Shown here piece after piece: positions 5,956-34,215 of a DNA stretch of 40,736 nt (position 1 is its first letter; every line of letters starts with the position of its first letter). A model generated the notes under the pieces. That model saw only the letters and a list, made by a program, of their open reading frames with translations. It was not told where the DNA came from and did no database searches. The stretch is from the UHGV virus genome UHGV-2023338. One strand, given 5' to 3'. Source of the stretch: a virus. The position numbers were made by a program, and so were the translations under genes.

Positions 5956-6059
5956 GTTAAATCTCCAGATAGTCGCAGCACCCGTTGCGCCGCATATCTG
6001 GTTATTCTATTACCAGAAAAACCATATATGGATATATAGCTCATGAATACGAACAGATA

Positions 6060-6074
6060 TTACCTTTCAGGTGA
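6060..6074. promoter_or_regulatory. Operator-like palindrome TTACCTTTCAGGTGA (14/15 match to TTACC-N5-GGTAA)
   Basis: Read directly from sequence; about 40 bp upstream of LexA box. Confidence 0.35.
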
Positions 6075-6111
6075 TTCGCAAAACGTGCTGGATAGCAAAC
6101 AAATTATTTGC

Positions 6112-6130
6112 TACTGTATATTTATACAGT
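6112..6130 (+). promoter_or_regulatory. LexA (SOS) box
   Basis: TACTGTATATTTATACAGT = CTGT-N8-ACAG with AT-rich spacer, near-identical to E. coli LexA consensus TACTGTATATATATACAGTA; 21 bp upstream of ATG at 6151; -35-like TTGCTA at 6108-6113. Confidence 0.7.
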
Positions 6131-6150
6131 TATTGCTTGGAGAAGATAAG

Positions 6151-6408
6151 ATGCAGCAGTATCACTATCCACTGGAAGACGGATTTACCGAAAGGATTCA
6201 CACGCCGGGAGGCGTCAGGTCACTGGTGGAGGGATCGCACTTGATGAAATTACTCCGGGCTCTCGATAAGGATGGATTTAATGTCGATGGCCCACTTGCC
6301 GAACTGACTGCACTGATTAACTACGTCACCAGCTCACAGATGTCTATGCAGGATCTGCAAACACATCTCGACTATTGTGCCGAACAATTACGAAAACAAA
6401 TCAGGTAA
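6151..6408 (+). CDS. Hypothetical 85-aa protein, SOS-box-associated moron (candidate antirepressor)
   Basis: Internal Met of track ORF 6043-6408 preceded by GGAG RBS; only plus-strand gene inside minus-strand virion operon; function inferred from context only. Confidence 0.45.
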   Translation: MQQYHYPLEDGFTERIHTPGGVRSLVEGSHLMKLLRALDKDGFNVDGPLAELTALINYVTSSQMSMQDLQTHLDYCAEQLRKQIR

Positions 6409-6431: not shown

Positions 6432-6445
6432 TGTGACATGTCACA
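6432..6445. repeat. Perfect 14-bp palindrome TGTGACATGTCACA (copy 1 of 3)
   Basis: Directly read; immediately preceded by hairpin GGGCCGC-GAAA-GCGGCC (6415-6431). Confidence 0.8.
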
Positions 6446-22580: not shown

Positions 22581-22670
22581 ATCAATGACTCCGTACGCAA
22601 TTAAATTATTACCAATTTAACCATATATGATTTATTTATCGTAGGTAGTTGACATTTAACGCACAAATTA

Positions 22671-22685
22671 TTACCTTTAAGGTAA
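22671..22685. promoter_or_regulatory. Operator-like palindrome TTACCTTTAAGGTAA
   Basis: Perfect TTACC-N5-GGTAA; TTGACA hexamer at 22649-22654 lies 17 bp upstream. Confidence 0.5.
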
Positions 22686-23008
22686 GCAAAGGGTTCATTC
22701 CGGTTATTAACCTGACTGGCTTGTCGTTAAATTGAACAGGTGGAGTGAGCTTTTATTTTGAGCAGTACGGCGTATGGCACATGCGCCGATAGCGGTATGG
22801 ATACGTTTAAGGGGCACCCTCCCTTGCTCGGGCAAACGAACCAGGTAGCCGGAATGTGCAAGTCGAGCGGTTTTATTCCGCGCACGGGGATTCACCATCC
22901 CGGCGATTCGGTGTGACGCCTCGGAAGAGACGAGGGTACAACGATGAGAGCATTTATGGAGCTGCGACAAAGTGTGGCGCACTTAACAGGCTAAGTGCTC
23001 TCAGCGTT

Positions 23009-23664: not shown

Positions 23665-23678
23665 CGTGACATGTCACA
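23665..23678. repeat. Palindrome CGTGACATGTCACA (copy 2 of 3)
   Basis: Directly read; 4 nt after stop of gene 23284-23661; followed by hairpin and TTTGTTTT. Confidence 0.8.
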
Positions 23679-23820
23679 AACAGCCGGCCGATGAGCTGGC
23701 TTTGTTTTATCCTCATCAGAGGATATCAACGACATTATCCCCTCATAGGGATACGTTTTTCATAATGACCGAAGATTACCTTAAAGGTAGAATCAGAAAA
23801 AAACCTAAAAGGGCCTGGAC

Positions 23821-24561
23821 ATGCTTGAATCACTTAAAGAATACCTATCTTCAACCGTTAATACCGCTGCGCAAAGGGTCAGAAATCCAGTGTTTGGAGC
23901 GTTCGCACTGTCATGGTGCGCCTTTAACTGGAAGTCGATTTTATACTTACTCCTCAGCGACTCCAGCATCATCGACAAGATCACCTACATTTCCAGCAAT
24001 AGCAGTTGGAAAACGGTATTAGCATTCCCATGTGTTTCAGCAATAATCCTGTGCGGCGGCATGCCCTGGATCAACAACGTGATTTCAAAGTGGCAAGCCA
24101 AACCTCTTGATAATTACGATTCGATAGAGAACCACCGGAAGGCCAAGCGCATTCATCGCGCCACACGCCTGCAGCGCCTGAAGGCAAAGCACGATGTGAC
24201 ATACGACAAAGTTAAGACTGGCGCCGAAAAGGACATACAGGCTATGAAGGAAAGAATTACGGAGTCACAGGCCAGGATGGGTGAGCTAACGTCGGAAAGA
24301 GATAGGCTCTCCGATAAGGTTTTGGAATTGAATAAGAAGCTGGAAAACATGCAATCAGTGGCTGCAGCGTTAAAGATTGAGGCAGAAAAGTCCGCCAGAA
24401 TGCTTGAAGATAGGGAGGCCAAAATAAATAATCTCATACAAGAATTAAAGGAAAAAGAAAAGGAAAGTATCGTATTGCATATGGGCCATGAACCCTTGCG
24501 AAAAACATATACATCACAGGCTGAGAGAATGATTGCTGAAGCCGTGAAAAATAAGCAATAA
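23821..24561 (+). CDS. AT-rich membrane protein with two TM helices and long cytoplasmic coiled coil (candidate superinfection-exclusion/abortive-infection protein)
   Basis: 246 aa; hydrophobic N-terminal segments then K/E-rich heptad-like region; noticeably AT-rich codon usage; converges on terL. Confidence 0.5.
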   Translation: MLESLKEYLSSTVNTAAQRVRNPVFGAFALSWCAFNWKSILYLLLSDSSIIDKITYISSNSSWKTVLAFPCVSAIILCGGMPWINNVISKWQAKPLDNYDSIENHRKAKRIHRATRLQRLKAKHDVTYDKVKTGAEKDIQAMKERITESQARMGELTSERDRLSDKVLELNKKLENMQSVAAALKIEAEKSARMLEDREAKINNLIQELKEKEKESIVLHMGHEPLRKTYTSQAERMIAEAVKNKQ

Positions 24562-24562
24562 A

Positions 24563-26038
24563 TCACGCAAACGGGTCGTAATCTGTGATGGCCTTGCCTT
24601 GCTGGTTCTGCTGACCGGGAATTCGCAGGCGCTTCGACACAGGGAAAGCAAACGTCAGCAATAGCGCATCGCCTTTCCCCGGCGAACGCCCAAGTCGTTC
24701 TTTGATATCTTCCTTCGGTTCGATAACGATTTTACCGTCCACGCGAACTTTGTACTCTGCCGTCGACAGGTCGTCCGCTGTTTCCTGGTCATCCAGCATA
24801 CCGCCCAGCCTCAGCCATGTCTTACATGAGTTGAACATCTCCCCACGCTTGTTGAGCATCTGCGGGTCAGTAGACGCGCCACCGAACGGAACAAGTTGCC
24901 ATGTCCTGCCCCAGCCGTCACCGATGGACTTCAGCCCGGTGCCGTAACCGAAGTCGATGAACACCGCGTCAGCCTGGTACTGGTCTTCAAAGTCGGCGAT
25001 TCGCTTAGCCATAATCAAATCGTCGGTGGTCTTGTTGCCGGTCCAGAGCACTTTGCTGTGCAGCCCCTGCCGCAGGTATATCACCGCGTCATCAACTCCG
25101 GAATACGCCGGGTCGACGCCGATAATCACAGGAGCGTGAGCAACCTGCCCGGCGGTAACCACCCGCTTCATGGCCTCGTCTGTAAGGCCTGTTGGGATAA
25201 ACTGGAGTTCTGACGCGTCAGGGAAGATCCCCCGCACGCGGACCTTCACGAAGTCGCTGTCTTCCCCGTAGTCATCAACCCATTTCTGCAACTGCTGTTT
25301 GTTAGTGCCTTCCACCGTCCGGCTGTCAATCTGCGCAGTTTTCCAGCGGTGTTTATATTTGCGGAAACATTCGCGGAAACGCCCGGTATTACGCGTCGGG
25401 TTCCCGAACGCCACCCAGATGATTTCGGTGTCTTCGTCCGTAAGCGCACCCTCAGCAACTTCCCACACCAGATCCGCAATGTTCGACGCTTCATCGAATA
25501 CCACGATGATGCGTTTGCGCTCGTTGTGTAGTCCGGCGAATGCCTCAGTGTTGTGCTCAGACCAGGGTATTGCGTCAGCCCGCCACCGCTTGTCGTGCCC
25601 AGGATCATTGCTGTACATCGCGGTAGCGGTACAGGTAAACCAGTCTTTCGTGATGGCAAGGTTCGACCACTTGATAATTTCCGGCCAGGTCTTCGTTCGT
25701 AGCTGGTTGTCGGTGTTGGCGGTCACCACGACCTTACAATCCTCGCAAGTGGACATGCCCCAGTTGATCAGCATTGAGATGAATGCGGATTTACCAATAC
25801 CGTGACCAGAAGCGCGTGCCAGCATAAGCGGCTGATAGCGCGTCTCTGGATTCTGCAGGTGATCACGTATCTCTCGGAACGCATCGGCCTGCCACTGACG
25901 TGGACCGGTGGCATGTGCCAGTTCAGTACCCTCTTCCCCCCACGGGAACGCATAGAGGGCATAGCCAAGCGGATCGTGAGTGAACCCTGCAATATCCTCG
26001 ATCAACTGCTCTTCAGGAGATAACGCTGTATCTGTCAC
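24563..26038 (-). CDS. terL: Terminase large subunit
   Basis: 491 aa; Walker A-like ASGHGIGKS and Walker B-like IIVVFDEA; overlaps small subunit by 4 nt. Confidence 0.9.
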   Translation of the reverse strand: MTDTALSPEEQLIEDIAGFTHDPLGYALYAFPWGEEGTELAHATGPRQWQADAFREIRDHLQNPETRYQPLMLARASGHGIGKSAFISMLINWGMSTCEDCKVVVTANTDNQLRTKTWPEIIKWSNLAITKDWFTCTATAMYSNDPGHDKRWRADAIPWSEHNTEAFAGLHNERKRIIVVFDEASNIADLVWEVAEGALTDEDTEIIWVAFGNPTRNTGRFRECFRKYKHRWKTAQIDSRTVEGTNKQQLQKWVDDYGEDSDFVKVRVRGIFPDASELQFIPTGLTDEAMKRVVTAGQVAHAPVIIGVDPAYSGVDDAVIYLRQGLHSKVLWTGNKTTDDLIMAKRIADFEDQYQADAVFIDFGYGTGLKSIGDGWGRTWQLVPFGGASTDPQMLNKRGEMFNSCKTWLRLGGMLDDQETADDLSTAEYKVRVDGKIVIEPKEDIKERLGRSPGKGDALLLTFAFPVSKRLRIPGQQNQQGKAITDYDPFA

Positions 26039-26631
26039 TGATTACCATCCTGACGTTCTTTGAGTCGCTTCCTGGCTGCTGCTATGCGATCAGCAATTGT
26101 CACATTCACATTAACATCCAGGCGTTCTTTGAATGCGTTGACGTCGACGTGCTTACCAATCAGTTCTAGGTTCTTCACCTTGTCAGGCCATTTAATTTTT
26201 TTGAGGATTGTCTCTATCGAGTCCTCGTTCATGTTCATGATGGTCGATGACAGATCAAAGCCGCTAAGCGTAGTGCGCCATATTTTCGGCCACTCGCGGA
26301 TTGGCTTAAGACTCCCATCGTCGTTGAGGATATCAATCACGTCCATCTGGTCGATCTCCACCAGGCGCATGAGAACGTAATCAGCACTGACGCGCATTCG
26401 TTTGTTGCGCTCCTCCATCAACTCGGCAATCCGTTTTTTAATGCGTTCATCACGCATCATGACACTGGCTTTAACTGCCGCTGTATTTGGGGAGAATCCT
26501 GCGTTAATCGCTGCCTGAGTCTGGTTTTCAGGCGTTTTGATGTATGACTGGCAATAAGCCTCCTGCATTGCTGTTAGTGGCTTAAATTGCGTTGATTTGC
26601 GTTTATAGGTTTTAGGTTCAGCAGACATCAT
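26035..26631 (-). CDS. terS: Terminase small subunit
   Basis: Start trimmed to Met downstream of hairpin terminator (track ORF N-terminal extension is Thr/Val/Ile junk); HTH-like FSPNTAA region; directly upstream of terL. Confidence 0.7.
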   Translation of the reverse strand: MMSAEPKTYKRKSTQFKPLTAMQEAYCQSYIKTPENQTQAAINAGFSPNTAAVKASVMMRDERIKKRIAELMEERNKRMRVSADYVLMRLVEIDQMDVIDILNDDGSLKPIREWPKIWRTTLSGFDLSSTIMNMNEDSIETILKKIKWPDKVKNLELIGKHVDVNAFKERLDVNVNVTIADRIAAARKRLKERQDGNQ

Positions 26632-26638
26632 AACCACC

Positions 26639-26667
26639 GTGGTAATAGTTACCGTTGTGGTAATAGT
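26639..26667. repeat. Direct repeat GTGGTAATAGT x2 (18-bp period) containing operator-like TTACCGTTGTGGTAA (26649-26663)
   Basis: Directly read; lies across terS start region, between late-region terminator and terS coding sequence. Confidence 0.6.
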
Positions 26668-26673
26668 ACCATG

Positions 26674-26700
26674 CAAAATAAAGCCGCCATAGTTGGCGGC
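26674..26700 (-). terminator. Intrinsic terminator upstream of terS (minus strand), tR-prime-like
   Basis: GCCGCCA-tagt-TGGCGGC hairpin followed on minus strand by TTTATTTTG. Confidence 0.5.
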
Positions 26701-26740
26701 AGTATTCAAAACCCATCAAATTCATCATGCATAATCTAAT

Positions 26741-26754
26741 CGTGACATGTCACA
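26741..26754. repeat. Palindrome CGTGACATGTCACA (copy 3 of 3)
   Basis: Directly read; overlaps stop codon of gene 26750-27091. Confidence 0.8.
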
Positions 26755-27091
26755 CTATTAATTTCGTTTCATGCCAGCCTTTAGTCACCCAGCATTGCAA
26801 GTCACCATTACACGGACATGAATTAACTGGAACTCTCTCGCCGCACTTACCGCAACATTTTCTGCTGATCGATTTTATACGCCCGCGCACGCGTGCATCA
26901 TCCTGGCGGATCAGTAACGCTATATACTCACCAAATTCGTAAGGCGCACGCCCGGGGCGACGCGTGGCACAGTTACGCTCCAGCATTTCAATTTCCTGAG
27001 CATCAAGCACAATTTCCAGCTTACGCACACCAGATGCAGCTTGTCTGGCTCTCTGAGCGGCTTTGCGCTCTGCTGCTGATTTAGCCATCAA
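26750..27091 (-). CDS. Putative DNA-binding protein with C-terminal Cys-rich zinc ribbon; candidate late-gene regulator
   Basis: 113 aa; basic N-terminus, C-terminal CCGKCG...CPCNG...C cluster; occupies the Q-like position immediately upstream of late terminator and terS. Confidence 0.4.
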   Translation of the reverse strand: MMAKSAAERKAAQRARQAASGVRKLEIVLDAQEIEMLERNCATRRPGRAPYEFGEYIALLIRQDDARVRGRIKSISRKCCGKCGERVPVNSCPCNGDLQCWVTKGWHETKLIV

Positions 27092-27362
27092 TATTTACCT
27101 TTATCGCGTACACCTTTACCGGTTTATCGCCGAAGTGCGGATGTGTGATTGTCTTGATTTCATATCCGTCATACGGGACGTCTATTCTGCGGCTGGAATC
27201 GTCGCGCTTCGGATATCCCTTTGTGATAATCAGGCGGTCATACTCCCGGAACATAATTCGCTTATTCCAGTAGTCATTACACAGGCGATACTCTTCCGTT
27301 TTCTCGCCTGACTTCATCTGGTCGAAATATTCACCGTTAACTGCCAGTTGAAGGTTAGCCAC
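27081..27362 (-). CDS. ASCH/DUF3850-like (PUA-fold) domain protein
   Basis: 93 aa; pattern GEYFDQMKSGEKTEEYR...ITKGY...VKVYAIKV resembles ASCH-type small proteins. Confidence 0.5.
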   Translation of the reverse strand: MANLQLAVNGEYFDQMKSGEKTEEYRLCNDYWNKRIMFREYDRLIITKGYPKRDDSSRRIDVPYDGYEIKTITHPHFGDKPVKVYAIKVNIDG

Positions 27363-30663: not shown

Positions 30664-31011
30664 TCAGAACTCTTCGATGTTCCAGCCGCCACCTGCTTTC
30701 TTTGGTTTAACCGTTACCCCGATGATTCGGAACGGATACTGATCTGCGGCTACTTTGGTTTTCACCCTGGCGTCGTCGGTCCAGAATCCCCCTTTCACTT
30801 CGTGCAGTTCCATCTCTCCGGTGGCGAGCATCACAGCGAAATCGGGCGTATAGAACGTGTTGTCAGCTAACCGCAGCTTGATACCCTCGAATCGATACCA
30901 GGCGATTTCCCCTGCACGTTTACGCTGCTCAAGGTGCTGGCAATACGCAGATTCTGTTTTGTTCATCTGGCCTGTTTTGAGTCGACCAAGAGCCTGTATC
31001 TGTTTTCTCAT
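30664..31011 (-). CDS. DUF1064-like protein (small nuclease-fold candidate)
   Basis: 115 aa; pattern KTESAYCQHLEQRKRAGEI...YTPDFAV...ELHEVKG resembles DUF1064 family by recollection. Confidence 0.45.
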   Translation of the reverse strand: MRKQIQALGRLKTGQMNKTESAYCQHLEQRKRAGEIAWYRFEGIKLRLADNTFYTPDFAVMLATGEMELHEVKGGFWTDDARVKTKVAADQYPFRIIGVTVKPKKAGGGWNIEEF

Positions 31012-31014
31012 GAT

Positions 31015-31091
31015 TTACCTCTAAGGTAATTAAAAACCACATAAGACACGAAATCAATAGAGTTTAGAATATTTTGTTACCTCATAGGTAA
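31015..31091. promoter_or_regulatory. Pair of operator palindromes (TTACCTCTAAGGTAA 31015-31029; TTACCTCATAGGTAA 31077-31091) in P-to-nin intergenic region
   Basis: Both perfect TTACC-N5-GGTAA, 62 bp apart centre-to-centre. Confidence 0.55.
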
Positions 31092-31100
31092 TTGTTGAGG

Positions 31101-33323: not shown

Positions 33324-33477
33324 AGCTATTGCCTGATATTTATTTCAGATAATAAATATTCACCCATAAGGTAACAAAAATCAAGGATAGTTACCTATGG
33401 GGTGCATTTACCTGTTGGGTAATATTGCTTTAAATTGAATCATCTACTGATTCATATATGAGGCGATTTTCCAGAAA
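33324..33477. promoter_or_regulatory. Immunity-region divergent promoter/operator region
   Basis: 154-bp AT-rich spacer between divergent regulators; perfect operator TTACCTGTTGGGTAA (33408-33422) plus two imperfect sites (33360-33374, 33391-33405). Confidence 0.6.
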
Positions 33478-34062
33478 ATGAAAAGTATCCAGGACGTCCG
33501 CAGGCAAAATCTCAACGACTTGATCGACCGTGAATTCAATGGTGTTCAGACGCGGATGGCAGAAAAACTTGGAACTCAGGCAAATCTGGTAAACCGCTGG
33601 GCTCTTGGCAAGAAGGTTATCGGCGACCAGGTTGCGCGAAAAATTGAAGCTGCCGCCAATAAACCACGTAACTGGCTTGATATCGATCGCTCGCTTTCTC
33701 AGGAAGGTTTTCAGCCTGTCGGCCCGAGCGATATAGGTCAGCTGGCGGCTCACAACCTGGAACGCTGGATGAGCGAAAGCCGCGACCTTTCAACACAGGG
33801 AAAACTTCACCGCGCATCCGGCGTCGCCCAGGTGACAATCAGCCGCCTGTTAAACAATGAAGTCAGCGTTTCCATTTCCACCCTGGAGAATGTTGCATCC
33901 GCATTCGGGCGTCACGGCTATGAATTACTGATTCACCCGCACGACCCTGCGACTATCAACTATGATCGCTCGCGCTACGCATTGTTACCTGAAACAGAGA
34001 AGGCAAAGATCGAAAGTTACATTGAATTTGTCATCAACCAGAACGAAAAAAGCAAACAATAA
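33478..34062 (+). CDS. CI-like prophage repressor candidate (two HTH regions, no evident autopeptidase domain)
   Basis: 194 aa; XRE-type HTH MAEKLGTQANLVNRWALGKK and second HTH-like ASGVAQVTISRLLNNEV; no Ala-Gly/Ser...Lys S24-type motifs seen; followed by terminator. Confidence 0.55.
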   Translation: MKSIQDVRRQNLNDLIDREFNGVQTRMAEKLGTQANLVNRWALGKKVIGDQVARKIEAAANKPRNWLDIDRSLSQEGFQPVGPSDIGQLAAHNLERWMSESRDLSTQGKLHRASGVAQVTISRLLNNEVSVSISTLENVASAFGRHGYELLIHPHDPATINYDRSRYALLPETEKAKIESYIEFVINQNEKSKQ

Positions 34063-34108: not shown

Positions 34109-34119
34109 TGCCTATGCGA

Positions 34120-34196
34120 TTACCTTATGGGTAATTTTTTTAACTCATATCTATTGACATCAAACCAGATACGCATAATTATTACCTCAACGGTAA
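34120..34196 (+). promoter_or_regulatory. PL-like promoter flanked by two operator palindromes
   Basis: TTACCTTATGGGTAA (34120-34134), TTGACA (34154-34159), -10-like TAATTA, TTACCTCAACGGTAA (34182-34196). Confidence 0.5.
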
Positions 34197-34215
34197 CAGA
34201 CCGAGGTAACAAGTT

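What the first reader, a model, noticed from the sequence alone, without database searches (positions are those of the whole stretch)
26639..26754. Late-operon control region: Q-position zinc-ribbon gene, palindrome, terminator, then direct repeats at terS start
Seen in order on the minus strand: stop of gene 26750-27091 inside CGTGACATGTCACA, hairpin terminator 26674-26700, then GTGGTAATAGT x2 containing an operator palindrome at the terS start. Inference: the layout parallels lambda Q / tR-prime, with the repeats as a candidate regulator-binding or pac-associated site.
Basis: partly seen in the sequence, partly recalled or inferred. Interest (0 to 1): 0.45.

Follow-up and report, generated by a model that had tools for sequence, protein, structure and literature searches.

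The report
Prophage repressor operators before terminase gene
The stretch is the joint between the early and packaging genes of an epsilon15/phiV10-type prophage: a terminator followed by a promoter that appears to be shut off by the prophage repressor, not a lambda-Q-type switch. The palindrome at the upstream gene's stop codon looks like the undescribed binding site of that small gene's own protein family.

Summary
All four features are at the stated coordinates and none is a chance match. The window is a Uetakevirus (epsilon15/phiV10-like) prophage with its late genes on the minus strand.

- **The repeats.** The two "direct repeats" are two tandem copies of the 17-bp operator ATTACC-N5-GGTAAT. 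This motif flanks the repressor gene and recurs before each gene block: 9 sites against 0.07 expected. The epsilon15 RefSeq record already marks the equivalent site as repressor-binding. The window's repressor is a homologue of the solved SPC32H Rep (PDB 5D50).
- **The promoter.** A conserved extended -10 (TGnTAnnAT) overlaps the first operator in the same register as at PL. The strong terminator therefore ends the early operon, and terS most likely has its own repressor-controlled promoter.
- **The 113-aa gene.** It is not Q-like. It has no Q homology, it sits in other positions in lambdoid prophages and in phage AH07, and it coexists with annotated Q-like/antitermination genes in N15 and AH07.
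- **The palindrome.** GTGAC-NN-GTCAC overlaps this gene's stop codon from Escherichia to Yersinia phages. It occurs 1-3 times per genome in at least five phage types (0.03-0.05 expected). It is probably the protein's cognate site. That link is new, and its function is unknown.

The parts
26750..27088 (-). Last gene of the early rightward operon, 112 aa from ATG 27088 (the ORF list gives TTG 27091). It belongs to PHROG family phrog_536 ('transcriptional regulator'). The N-terminal half weakly resembles YbfE (annotated 'LexA regulated protein') and may be ribbon-helix-helix-like; the C-terminal part carries a conserved Cys4 motif.
26742..26753 (.). PAL site 1: the perfect palindrome GTGACATGTCAC, overlapping the TGA stop (26752-26750) of the 112-aa gene. 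It is the probable cognate DNA site of that protein family.
26701..26741 (-). Non-conserved spacer. Its 3' part (GATGAATTTGATGGGTTTTGA) is the remnant of a small ORF that is intact at this position in other contigs (e.g. L045). It contains only one weak promoter-like match (9 of 12), which is not conserved.
26675..26700 (-). Intrinsic terminator of the early operon: 7-bp GC-rich stem GCCGCCA/TGGCGGC, loop ACTA, tail TTTATTTT. Hairpin energy -13.8 kcal/mol.
   Evidence: annotated as a terminator in the phiV10 and epsilon15 records
26663..26671 (-). Predicted extended -10 promoter element TGgTACTAT of P(terS). Its last two bases are the first two of operator 1, the same register as at PL.
26648..26664 (.). 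Operator 1: ATTACCACAACGGTAAC on the minus strand, 1 mismatch to ATTACC-N5-GGTAAT.
26630..26646 (.). Operator 2: ATTACCACGGTGGTTAT on the minus strand, 1 mismatch. It overlaps the ribosome-binding site GGTGG (26638-26634) and the first ATG of terS.
26035..26628 (-). terS (Terminase_2 family, PF03592). The conserved start is the second ATG, 26628. terL follows at 26038-24563.
33478..34062 (+). Prophage repressor gene, a homologue of SPC32H Rep (PDB 5D50). Its product is the presumed binder of the operators.
34119..34197 (.). PL operator pair (34119-34135 and 34181-34197), with the PL promoter TTGACA-17-AATTAT at 34154-34182 on the plus strand.
33407..33423 (.). PR-region operator between the repressor gene and the cro-like gene.
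31014..31092 (.). Operator pair (31014-31030 and 31076-31092) located after a terminator-like hairpin with a T-run that follows the replication genes (phiV10 annotates a terminator at the equivalent place). A promoter TTGATT-17-TTTAAT overlaps the operator in front of the next gene.
22670..22686 (.). Operator upstream of the gp3/portal gene block.
6059..6075 (.). Operator upstream of the tail-fibre gene.
23666..23677 (.). PAL site 2. On the plus strand the order is: stop of the Sf6-gene-66-like gene (23661), PAL, then terminator 23682-23701.
6433..6444 (.). PAL site 3. On the minus strand the order is: stop of a small membrane-protein ORF, 7 nt, PAL, then hairpin 6431-6416. This is the end of the structural operon.

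Best explanation
The stretch is the boundary between two transcription units of a Uetakevirus prophage.

1. Shown from sequence: the early rightward operon ends with the 112-aa gene and a strong intrinsic terminator.
2. Inferred: immediately after the terminator lies a sigma-70 promoter of the extended -10 type (TGgTACTAT). It transcribes terS and terL.
3. Inferred: this promoter is overlapped by two tandem copies of the 17-bp operator of the prophage repressor, a homologue of SPC32H Rep. The first copy covers the -10 and the start site. The second covers the leader and the ribosome-binding site. In a lysogen, repressor bound there keeps the packaging genes silent and also blocks any read-through. 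When the repressor is inactivated the promoter fires. From memory of the SPC32H literature, not read here, inactivation in this phage group is by a LexA-controlled antirepressor. This unit is one of about six operator-guarded restarts spread along the genome.
4. Separately: the palindrome GTGACATGTCAC at the stop codon belongs to the 112-aa gene, not to terS. It is most likely the DNA site bound by that protein. A plausible role is to control what RNA polymerase does just downstream of the gene, but the direction of the effect is unknown.
For: Operator identity:
- The motif ATTACC-N5-GGTAAT gives 9 sites at up to 1 mismatch against 0.07 expected. All are intergenic and they cluster at PL and PR around the repressor gene.
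- The epsilon15 RefSeq record annotates this motif as 'protein_bind: repressor', including site 12-27 just upstream of terS.
- The same motif and positions occur in phiV10, Tyrion and SPN1S.
- The window's repressor matches SPC32H Rep, PDB 5D50, at E=3.5e-42 over its full length.

Promoter:
- TGnTAnnAT abuts TACC in 25 of 29 distinct terS-upstream sequences. The other four were mis-registered by my script and also carry it.
- It is kept even where the terminator is absent because another gene ends directly at this block.
- Variation is confined to the operator spacer, the n of TGn and positions 3-4 of the -10.
- The register is identical to PL (TTGACA-17-AATTAT|TACC) and to the 31014 promoter (TTGATT-17-TTTAAT|TACC).

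Terminator:
- Hairpin energy is -13.8 kcal/mol with a T-run.
- A hairpin with a T-run is kept at this place in relatives with a different stem and loop sequence.

Palindrome and gene link:
- PAL overlaps or lies within 12 nt of the gene's stop in 77 of 80 viral contigs. The same holds in N15 (35% identity), a Yersinia P2-like phage (41%), ZF40 and AH07.
- There are 124 copies in 1.29 Mb against about 1.2 expected. Six composition-matched control palindromes give 0-1 copies.
- Ten genomes of at least five phage types carry 1-3 copies each against 0.03-0.05 expected. Phage lambda has none.
Against: - No binding or transcript data exist for this window. The epsilon15 'repressor' features are record annotations whose experimental basis I could not read, because the paper is not held.
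- P(terS) has no recognisable -35 element, so it could be weak or need an activator.
- All relatives share one operator motif, so a covariation test between repressor and terS-site specificity was not possible.
- For the 112-aa protein, the ribbon-helix-helix assignment is weak: E=0.053, below the family cut-off. The structure model is poor, at pLDDT 64.
- The link between the palindrome and the gene is purely statistical co-occurrence.
- phiV10 carries a mutated copy at this site (GTGACATGTTAC). Some homologues have no copy at the stop: the Providencia, Samsonia and Rouxiella loci and the truncated gene in L006, and the Vibrio phage.
Confidence: 0.7

Rival explanations
1. The zinc-ribbon protein is a Q-like late activator or antiterminator. 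It binds the palindrome, modifies RNA polymerase, and lets early transcripts read through the terminator into terS and the late genes.
For: - The gene is the last early gene and sits directly before a terminator and terS.
- In Uetakevirus genomes every palindrome copy lies between a stop codon and an intrinsic terminator.
- No other antiterminator is annotated in phiV10 or epsilon15, although six or so terminators interrupt the co-directional gene array.
- In a Vibrio phage a palindrome copy lies 31 nt before the terS start.
Against: - There is no similarity to Q families.
- Homologues coexist with an annotated Q-like antiterminator gene in N15 and an annotated 'antitermination protein' gene in AH07. 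They sit in the nin region or the leftward operon elsewhere.
- There is no conserved promoter or pause element between gene and terminator. The spacer is a gene remnant of variable length.
- At site 2 the palindrome precedes the terminator of a reverse-oriented accessory gene, where read-through would run antisense into terL.
- In ZF40, AH07 and N15 the extra copies lie inside coding regions.
- terS has its own conserved promoter-like element downstream of the terminator.
Confidence: 0.1
2. The tandem repeats are the packaging recognition (pac) site, or another small-terminase-binding site, rather than, or in addition to, repressor operators.
For: - The repeats always travel with terS, even when a foreign gene is inserted upstream.
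- From general knowledge: in several headful-packaging phages pac lies in or next to the terS gene.
- Public records of this genus are opened at or near this point.
Against: - The motif is the same as at seven other intergenic sites, including the clusters around the repressor gene. That pattern is expected of operators, not of a unique pac site.
- Record start points differ between phages (after the stop codon, in the terminator, at an ORF start). They look conventional, not mapped ends.
- No terminal data are available.
Confidence: 0.08
3. The operators are not on a promoter. They act only as roadblocks ('stoperators', as for mycobacteriophage L5 repressor) that stop polymerases leaking through the terminator in a lysogen. 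On this model terS is transcribed by read-through during lytic growth.
For: - Several operator sites (31076, 26648/26630 and, at 2 mismatches, 33022) lie directly downstream of terminators or terminator-like hairpins, in the direction of transcription.
- P(terS) has no -35 element.
Against: - The TG and TA..AT bases immediately 5' of the operator are invariant across 29 distinct sequences. They are not part of the operator consensus at other sites: for example the 34119 operator has GCG at that position.
- The -10/operator register equals that of PL.
- A -13.8 kcal/mol terminator would leave little read-through to feed the packaging genes.
Confidence: 0.12
4. The palindrome has nothing to do with the 112-aa protein. 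It is an RNA or terminator-associated element, or a conserved junction sequence at which gene cassettes are exchanged between phages.
For: - At least five different genes are found directly after the palindrome in different genomes. Mosaic break points fall on it.
- In one Pantoea prophage the extended palindrome plus a T-run is itself terminator-like.
Against: - The RNA hairpin is weak, at -2.9 kcal/mol.
- Copies occur inside coding regions in ZF40, AH07 and N15.
- Half-sites GTGAC/GTCAC are kept, while the central two bases vary (AT, TG, GC, AC, CT), in genomes that share nothing obvious except this gene.
Confidence: 0.2

Closest known systems
Repressor operators of epsilon15/SPC32H-type phages (Rep repressor, PDB 5D50; 'protein_bind: repressor' features of record NC_004775.2)
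   Same: - Same 17-bp motif ATTACC-N5-GGTAAT.
- Same position just upstream of terS.
- Same clustering at PL and PR, and a homologous repressor.
   Different: - The window has two good tandem sites 18 bp apart. Epsilon15 annotates only the first.
- The overlapping extended -10 element is not annotated in any record I saw.
Lambda Q / PR' / tR' late switch
   Same: A small gene at the end of the early operon is followed by a terminator in front of the late genes.
   Different: - There is no Q homology, no conserved promoter or Q-binding element before the terminator, and no fixed geometry.
- Homologues coexist with annotated Q-like/antitermination genes elsewhere.
- The late unit has its own repressor-guarded promoter after the terminator.
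Mycobacteriophage L5 'stoperators' (repressor sites spread through the genome; from general knowledge)
   Same: There are many repressor sites outside the immunity region, in short intergenic gaps, several of them just downstream of terminators.
   Different: The sites here are symmetric palindromes, few in number (about 9), and at least three overlap promoter -10 elements. They look like classical operators at distributed promoters rather than orientation-dependent elongation blocks.
Ribbon-helix-helix repressors such as CopB/RepA2 and YbfE ('LexA regulated protein'), for the 112-aa protein
   Same: A similar N-terminal sequence pattern (basic helix, short strand, two helices), and a short palindromic candidate site.
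   Different: - The profile match is below threshold.
- There is an extra C-terminal Cys4 module.
- The site lies at the 3' end of its own gene, not in a promoter.

Membership tests
Lambda-type Q antitermination module | The protein is homologous to a Q family. | tested here: not met
   Pfam, PHROGs and NCBIfam give no Q family. The only strong hit is phrog_536 'transcriptional regulator'.
Lambda-type Q antitermination module | A conserved promoter with a Q-binding element and a pause site lies between the Q gene and the terminator. | tested here: not met
   There is one 9/12 promoter-like match, fewer than in shuffles. The spacer is not conserved, its length differs between relatives, and it is a remnant of a deleted ORF.
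Lambda-type Q antitermination module | An intrinsic terminator lies upstream of the late genes. | tested here: met
Lambda-type Q antitermination module | The gene occupies the Q position and is the phage's late regulator. | tested here: not met
   Homologues lie in nin regions, in the leftward operon of AH07, and downstream of an annotated Q-like antiterminator gene in N15.
Epsilon15/SPC32H Rep operator | Match to the 17-bp palindrome ATTACC-N5-GGTAAT. | tested here: met
   Two sites with 1 mismatch each; 9 in the window against 0.07 expected.
Epsilon15/SPC32H Rep operator | The same motif is clustered around the repressor gene of the same genome. | tested here: met
   Sites at 34119, 34181 and 33407, plus weaker neighbours.
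Epsilon15/SPC32H Rep operator | A cognate repressor is encoded. | tested here: met
   The product of 33478-34062(+) matches PDB 5D50 at E=3.5e-42 over its full length.
Epsilon15/SPC32H Rep operator | The repressor physically binds the site. | not testable with these tools
   Needs a gel-shift or footprinting experiment. The papers on epsilon15 and SPC32H are not held.
Sigma-70 extended -10 promoter | TGn followed by a TAnnnT hexamer, conserved among relatives. | tested here: met
   TGgTACTAT at 26671-26663. The TG and TA..AT bases are invariant in 29 distinct sequences.
Sigma-70 extended -10 promoter | A transcript starts 6-8 nt downstream. | not testable with these tools
   Needs 5'-end mapping.
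Intrinsic (Rho-independent) terminator | A GC-rich hairpin followed by a T-run, at a gene end. | tested here: met
   7-bp stem with 6 GC pairs, -13.8 kcal/mol, tail TTTATTTT. A terminator is kept at this place in relatives with other stem sequences.
Ribbon-helix-helix DNA-binding proteins (112-aa protein) | A significant profile match or a strand-helix-helix fold. | tested here: inconclusive
   NF008671 (YbfE) gives E=0.053, 13.9 bits against a cut-off of 62. The AF2 model has pLDDT 64, with helices at 30-42 and 52-67. There are no significant fold or PDB sequence matches.
Zinc ribbon / Cys4 zinc-binding module (112-aa protein) | Four conserved Cys residues in CxxC...C...C spacing. | tested here: met
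   C79 and C82 are invariant, and C91 and C99 are kept, out to the N15 homologue. Metal binding itself was not tested.
pac site (small-terminase recognition site) | Packaging series start here, or TerS binds here. | not testable with these tools
   No virion-end data. The one Uetakevirus paper searched for it (PAS61) says nothing on termini.

The most novel reading that the evidence does not exclude
The 112-aa protein family (phrog_536: a possibly ribbon-helix-helix-like N-terminal half plus a Cys4 module) is an undescribed, widespread phage regulator. It binds the palindrome GTGAC-NN-GTCAC. One copy always lies at the gene's own stop codon, and others lie at operon ends or in front of genes. 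The protein controls what RNA polymerase does there, as a DNA-loaded roadblock/terminator enhancer or as an antiterminator. It thereby gates expression of whatever lies downstream, including, in this phage genus, passage from the early genes into the packaging genes.
Probability: 0.15. Interest if true: 0.7.

Novelty: new member of a known kind. Interest (0 to 1): 0.38.

Why it matters
For this window, the result replaces a speculative lambda-Q analogy with a concrete, testable map: terminator, then a repressor-guarded promoter, then terS.

It also shows that this phage genus appears to keep its genes silent with one repressor acting at about six dispersed promoters rather than through an obvious antitermination cascade. 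That bears on how epsilon15/SPC32H-type prophages, common in E. coli, Salmonella and Klebsiella, time their late genes.

The more interesting by-product is a tight statistical link between a small, widespread, uncharacterised phage protein and a 12-bp palindrome that overlaps its own stop codon. If confirmed, it defines a new regulator-site pair found in podoviruses, P2-like phages, N15-like plasmid-prophages, lambdoid prophages and Vibrio phages.

Tried and rejected
- **Rfam scan of 26300-27200.** It gave only a sub-threshold rseX match (28.5 bits against a 50-bit gathering score), driven by the terminator. I treated it as chance.
- **Structure of the 112-aa protein.** The AlphaFold2 model from a 30-sequence alignment was poor (pLDDT 64). 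Foldseek against the PDB gave nothing below E=2.7. PDB sequence and profile searches gave nothing.
- **Helical phasing between palindrome and -10.** Distances are 59-61, 79-80 and 90 nt, and 310-422 nt when a gene is inserted. There are too few independent classes, and the relation breaks with insertions. The idea of an upstream activator site was rejected.
- **Covariation between repressor specificity and the terS site.** The test was impossible because every relative, including SPN1S, uses the same operator motif.
- **Small RNA from palindrome to terminator.** Rejected because the spacer is not conserved and is an ORF remnant.
- **Literature.**
  - The epsilon15 genome paper and the SPC32H repressor paper are not held.
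  - No held paper contains the palindrome sequence.
  - The ZX5 paper shows only that repressor overexpression abolishes holin and endolysin mRNA, which does not discriminate between the models.
- **Distant-homologue scan of viral contigs.** The narrower profile returned mostly close relatives, so the 80-contig statistics are not independent samples.

Full report
**What the window is.** The 1.4 kb around the finding is 95-98% identical to E. coli O157 typing phages 9 and 10, PAS61, ZX5, TL-2011b and phiV10. The gene order matches phiV10 and epsilon15. The window is therefore a Uetakevirus (epsilon15/phiV10-like podovirus) prophage, and its late genes are on the minus strand. Read on that strand, the order is:
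- a DUF551 gene and an ASCH-like gene;
- the 113-aa gene (27091/27088-26750);
- terS (Terminase_2, start 26628);
- terL (26038-24563).

**Check of the observation.**
- The TGA stop at 26752-26750 lies inside the perfect palindrome GTGACATGTCAC (26742-26753).
- The hairpin is GCCGCCA-ACTA-TGGCGGC followed by TTTATTTT (26700-26675). Its energy is -13.8 kcal/mol.
- GTGGTAATAGT occurs twice, at 26639-26649 and 26657-26667.

None of this is chance. The exact palindrome occurs three times in the window. The motif inside the repeats is strongly over-represented.

**What the repeats are.** On the minus strand the repeats resolve into two tandem imperfect palindromes, 18 bp apart:
- ATTACCACAACGGTAAC (26664-26648);
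- ATTACCACGGTGGTTAT (26646-26630).

The motif ATTACC-N5-GGTAAT occurs 9 times in the window at up to 1 mismatch, against 0.07 expected. At up to 2 mismatches it occurs 14 times against 1.26 expected. All nine good sites are intergenic:
- two at PL (34119, 34181) and one at PR (33407), flanking the repressor gene 33478-34062;
- a pair after the replication genes (31076, 31014);
- the terS pair;
- one before the gp3/portal block (22670);
- one before the tail-fibre gene (6059).

The epsilon15 RefSeq record annotates exactly this motif as 'protein_bind: repressor, lysogeny' at seven places. One of them is bases 12-27, directly upstream of terS. phiV10, Tyrion and SPN1S have the motif at the same places.

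The window's repressor is a full-length homologue of the SPC32H repressor, whose structure is solved (PDB 5D50, E=3.5e-42). A paper that cites that work describes Rep as binding palindromic DNA sites as a tetramer (PMC9638917). This fits paired sites.

The regulator is the prophage repressor, and the equivalent site is already annotated in a public record.

**A promoter under the operators.** In 76 loci with a terS homologue there are 29 distinct upstream sequences. The block TGnTAnnAT abuts the TACC of the first operator in 25 of them. My script mis-registered the other four, and they carry it too.

The invariant bases are the TG, the TA..AT, and the half-sites TTACC and GGTAA. Changes fall in the five-base operator spacer, the n of TGn, and positions 3-4 of the hexamer. 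That is the pattern expected of an extended -10 promoter overlapped by an operator.

The block is kept even where the terminator is missing because a umuD-like gene ends directly at this block (L005, L009).

The register matches two better-defined promoters:
- PL: TTGACA, 17 nt, AATTAT|TACC (34154-34182);
- the promoter before the gene at 31011: TTGATT, 17 nt, TTTAAT|TACC.

Operators that are not expected to sit on a promoter lack these flanking bases; an example is 34119, flanked by GCG. I therefore infer a repressor-controlled promoter, P(terS). Its -10 lies at 26668-26663 and its start near 26656. The second operator covers the leader and the ribosome-binding site GGTGG (26638-26634). This is inference from sequence; no transcript data exist.

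**The terminator.** It is strong and is annotated as a terminator in the phiV10 and epsilon15 records. Relatives keep a hairpin plus T-run at this place with a different stem and loop: AACCGCC-GCTT-GGCGGTT in the Rahnella-type prophages. Wholly different terminators follow the gene in lambdoid contexts.

In phiV10 the long co-directional array from PR to the lysis genes is interrupted by six annotated terminators. Along the window, operator sites follow several terminators or terminator-like hairpins and the reverse-oriented accessory genes, ahead of the next gene block. The terS joint is one instance of this general plan.

**The 113-aa gene is not Q-like.**
- It matches PHROG family 536 ('transcriptional regulator', E=5e-54) but no Pfam family and no Q family.
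- The only other hint is a sub-threshold match of residues 10-49 to YbfE, annotated 'LexA regulated protein' (E=0.053).
- The structure model is poor (pLDDT 64). It shows helices at 5-19, 30-42 and 52-67, and it has no significant fold matches.
- The C-terminal cysteines C79, C82, C91 and C99 are conserved out to the N15 homologue, so a Cys4 zinc module is plausible.

The family has 605 clusters at 90% identity, all in Enterobacterales-type hosts among those listed. Its genomic position is not fixed:
- directly before terS in Uetakevirus-like prophages;
- upstream of NinB-type genes in lambdoid prophages;
- next to integrase genes in others;
- in the leftward operon of Pantoea phage AH07, which also has an annotated 'antitermination protein' gene;
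- six genes downstream of an annotated Q-like antiterminator gene (gene 40) in N15.

Between the gene and the terminator there is only one weak promoter-like match. The 41-nt spacer is the tail of a small ORF that is intact in about twenty viral contigs. Together these points remove the lambda Q / PR' / tR' analogy.

**The palindrome belongs to the gene.** This is the unexpected result. GTGACATGTCAC, or GTGAC-NN-GTCAC, overlaps or closely follows the stop codon of the homologue in most of the 21 genome loci, whatever lies downstream. The same holds in 77 of 80 viral contigs, and two of the three exceptions are contigs that end at the stop codon. Distant homologues show it too:

| Phage | Identity to the window protein | Palindrome at or near the stop |
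|---|---|---|
| N15 (gp46) | 35% | CGTGACTGGTCACG |
| Yersinia P2-like phage | 41% | GTGACGCGTCAC |
| ZF40 | 65% | GTGACATGTCAC |
| AH07 | 57% | GTGACCTGTCAC |

Further copies occur in the same genomes:
- Three conserved positions in the window, epsilon15, SPN1S and Tyrion; phiV10 keeps two exact copies plus a degenerate one at its record junction.
- Three copies in N15.
- Three copies in the first 35 kb of ZF40.
- Two copies in AH07.
- Three copies in Vibrio phage K303. Two of these lie 31 nt before the ATG of terS and of another gene.

Each genome is expected to hold 0.03-0.05 copies, and phage lambda has none. In the 80 contigs there are 124 copies against about 1.2 expected, while six composition-matched control palindromes give 0-1 copies. 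Those contigs are mostly close relatives, so the cross-family comparison is the stronger evidence.

In the Uetakevirus genomes each copy lies between a stop codon and an intrinsic terminator. Site 2 does so on the opposite strand, for a reverse-oriented accessory gene. Elsewhere the palindrome is often followed directly by the ribosome-binding site of the next gene, or it lies inside coding regions. As an RNA hairpin it is weak, at -2.9 kcal/mol.

The simplest reading is that it is the DNA site of the 112-aa protein. I could not determine what binding does there. No held paper contains the sequence.

**Alternatives.**
- A pac role for the repeats cannot be tested here. It is unlikely to be their main role, because the motif is shared with eight other sites.
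- A pure roadblock role for the operators is compatible with their position after terminators, but it does not explain the invariant promoter bases.
- A Q-like role for the protein retains some probability. No antiterminator is annotated in this genus, and the palindromes sit just upstream of terminators. The evidence listed above weighs against it.

**Verdict.** The control region is an ordinary, already partly annotated feature of this phage genus: a terminator followed by a repressor-guarded terS promoter. The one new element is the link between the palindrome and the protein family.

Noticed in passing
L007 3557-5335; L016 3440-5035; L020 3538-5340: In three prophages (Citrobacter braakii, Samsonia, Rahnella) the terL homologue is split by an insertion of about 960 bp after residue ~84. 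This may be an intron, an intein or a homing-endonuclease insertion.
   Followed up: no
window 6114-6129: A perfect LexA-box-like sequence, CTGTATATTTATACAG, lies 40 bp from the operator at 6059-6075. It sits between the tail-fibre gene and the plus-strand ORF 6043-6408. This is the likely control region of a LexA-regulated antirepressor, as I recall being described for SPC32H-type phages.
   Followed up: partly
L004 2850-3240; L005 2850-3300; L009 3050-3500: A gene preceded by its own -35-like element and a consensus LexA box is inserted between the palindrome and the terS promoter. It is umuD-like in L005 and L009; L004 carries a different ORF. In L005 and L009 it replaces the terminator.
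   Followed up: partly
L045 10350-10560 (about 20 viral contigs); window 26701-26741: A small ORF of about 70 aa starts right after the palindrome in many relatives. The window keeps only its last ~20 nt (GATGAATTTGATGGGTTTTGA), so the 41-nt spacer is a deletion remnant.
   Followed up: yes
L025 (phiV10 NC_007804.2) 41-715: The RefSeq terS of phiV10 is annotated from a TTG inside the terminator stem (224 aa). That places the terminator and both operators inside the coding region. Relatives and the conservation pattern support the 198-aa version.
   Followed up: partly
window 34119/34181 and 31014/31076: Two operator pairs have the same 62-bp start-to-start spacing. The terS pair and the PR pairs of epsilon15 and SPN1S are 17-18 bp apart. 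This may reflect two binding geometries of a tetrameric repressor.
   Followed up: no
window 23821-24561 (+): A 246-aa plus-strand gene lies between terL and palindrome site 2. It appears to be an N-terminal membrane segment plus a long coiled coil (my reading of the sequence) and has no Pfam family above threshold. It is absent from phiV10 and may be an accessory or defence gene.
   Followed up: partly
L030 (N15) 28550, 33237, 39269: N15 carries three copies of CGTGAC-TG/CA-GTCACG. One is at the gene 46 stop. One is inside the replication gene repA. One is in the gap between genes 33 and 32, upstream of the operon that includes the annotated anti-repressor gene.
   Followed up: no
window 26676-26761 (-): A sub-threshold Rfam match to the rseX small RNA (28.5 bits, gathering score 50) spans the stretch from palindrome to terminator. 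It is probably chance.
   Followed up: yes
L011, L013, L014, L033 (ZF40): In several unrelated prophages the 112-aa gene lies immediately downstream of what look like large DNA methyltransferase genes. In L011, L013 and L014 this is judged only from the N-terminal sequence; in ZF40 the record annotates them as methylases. A functional link was not examined.
   Followed up: no
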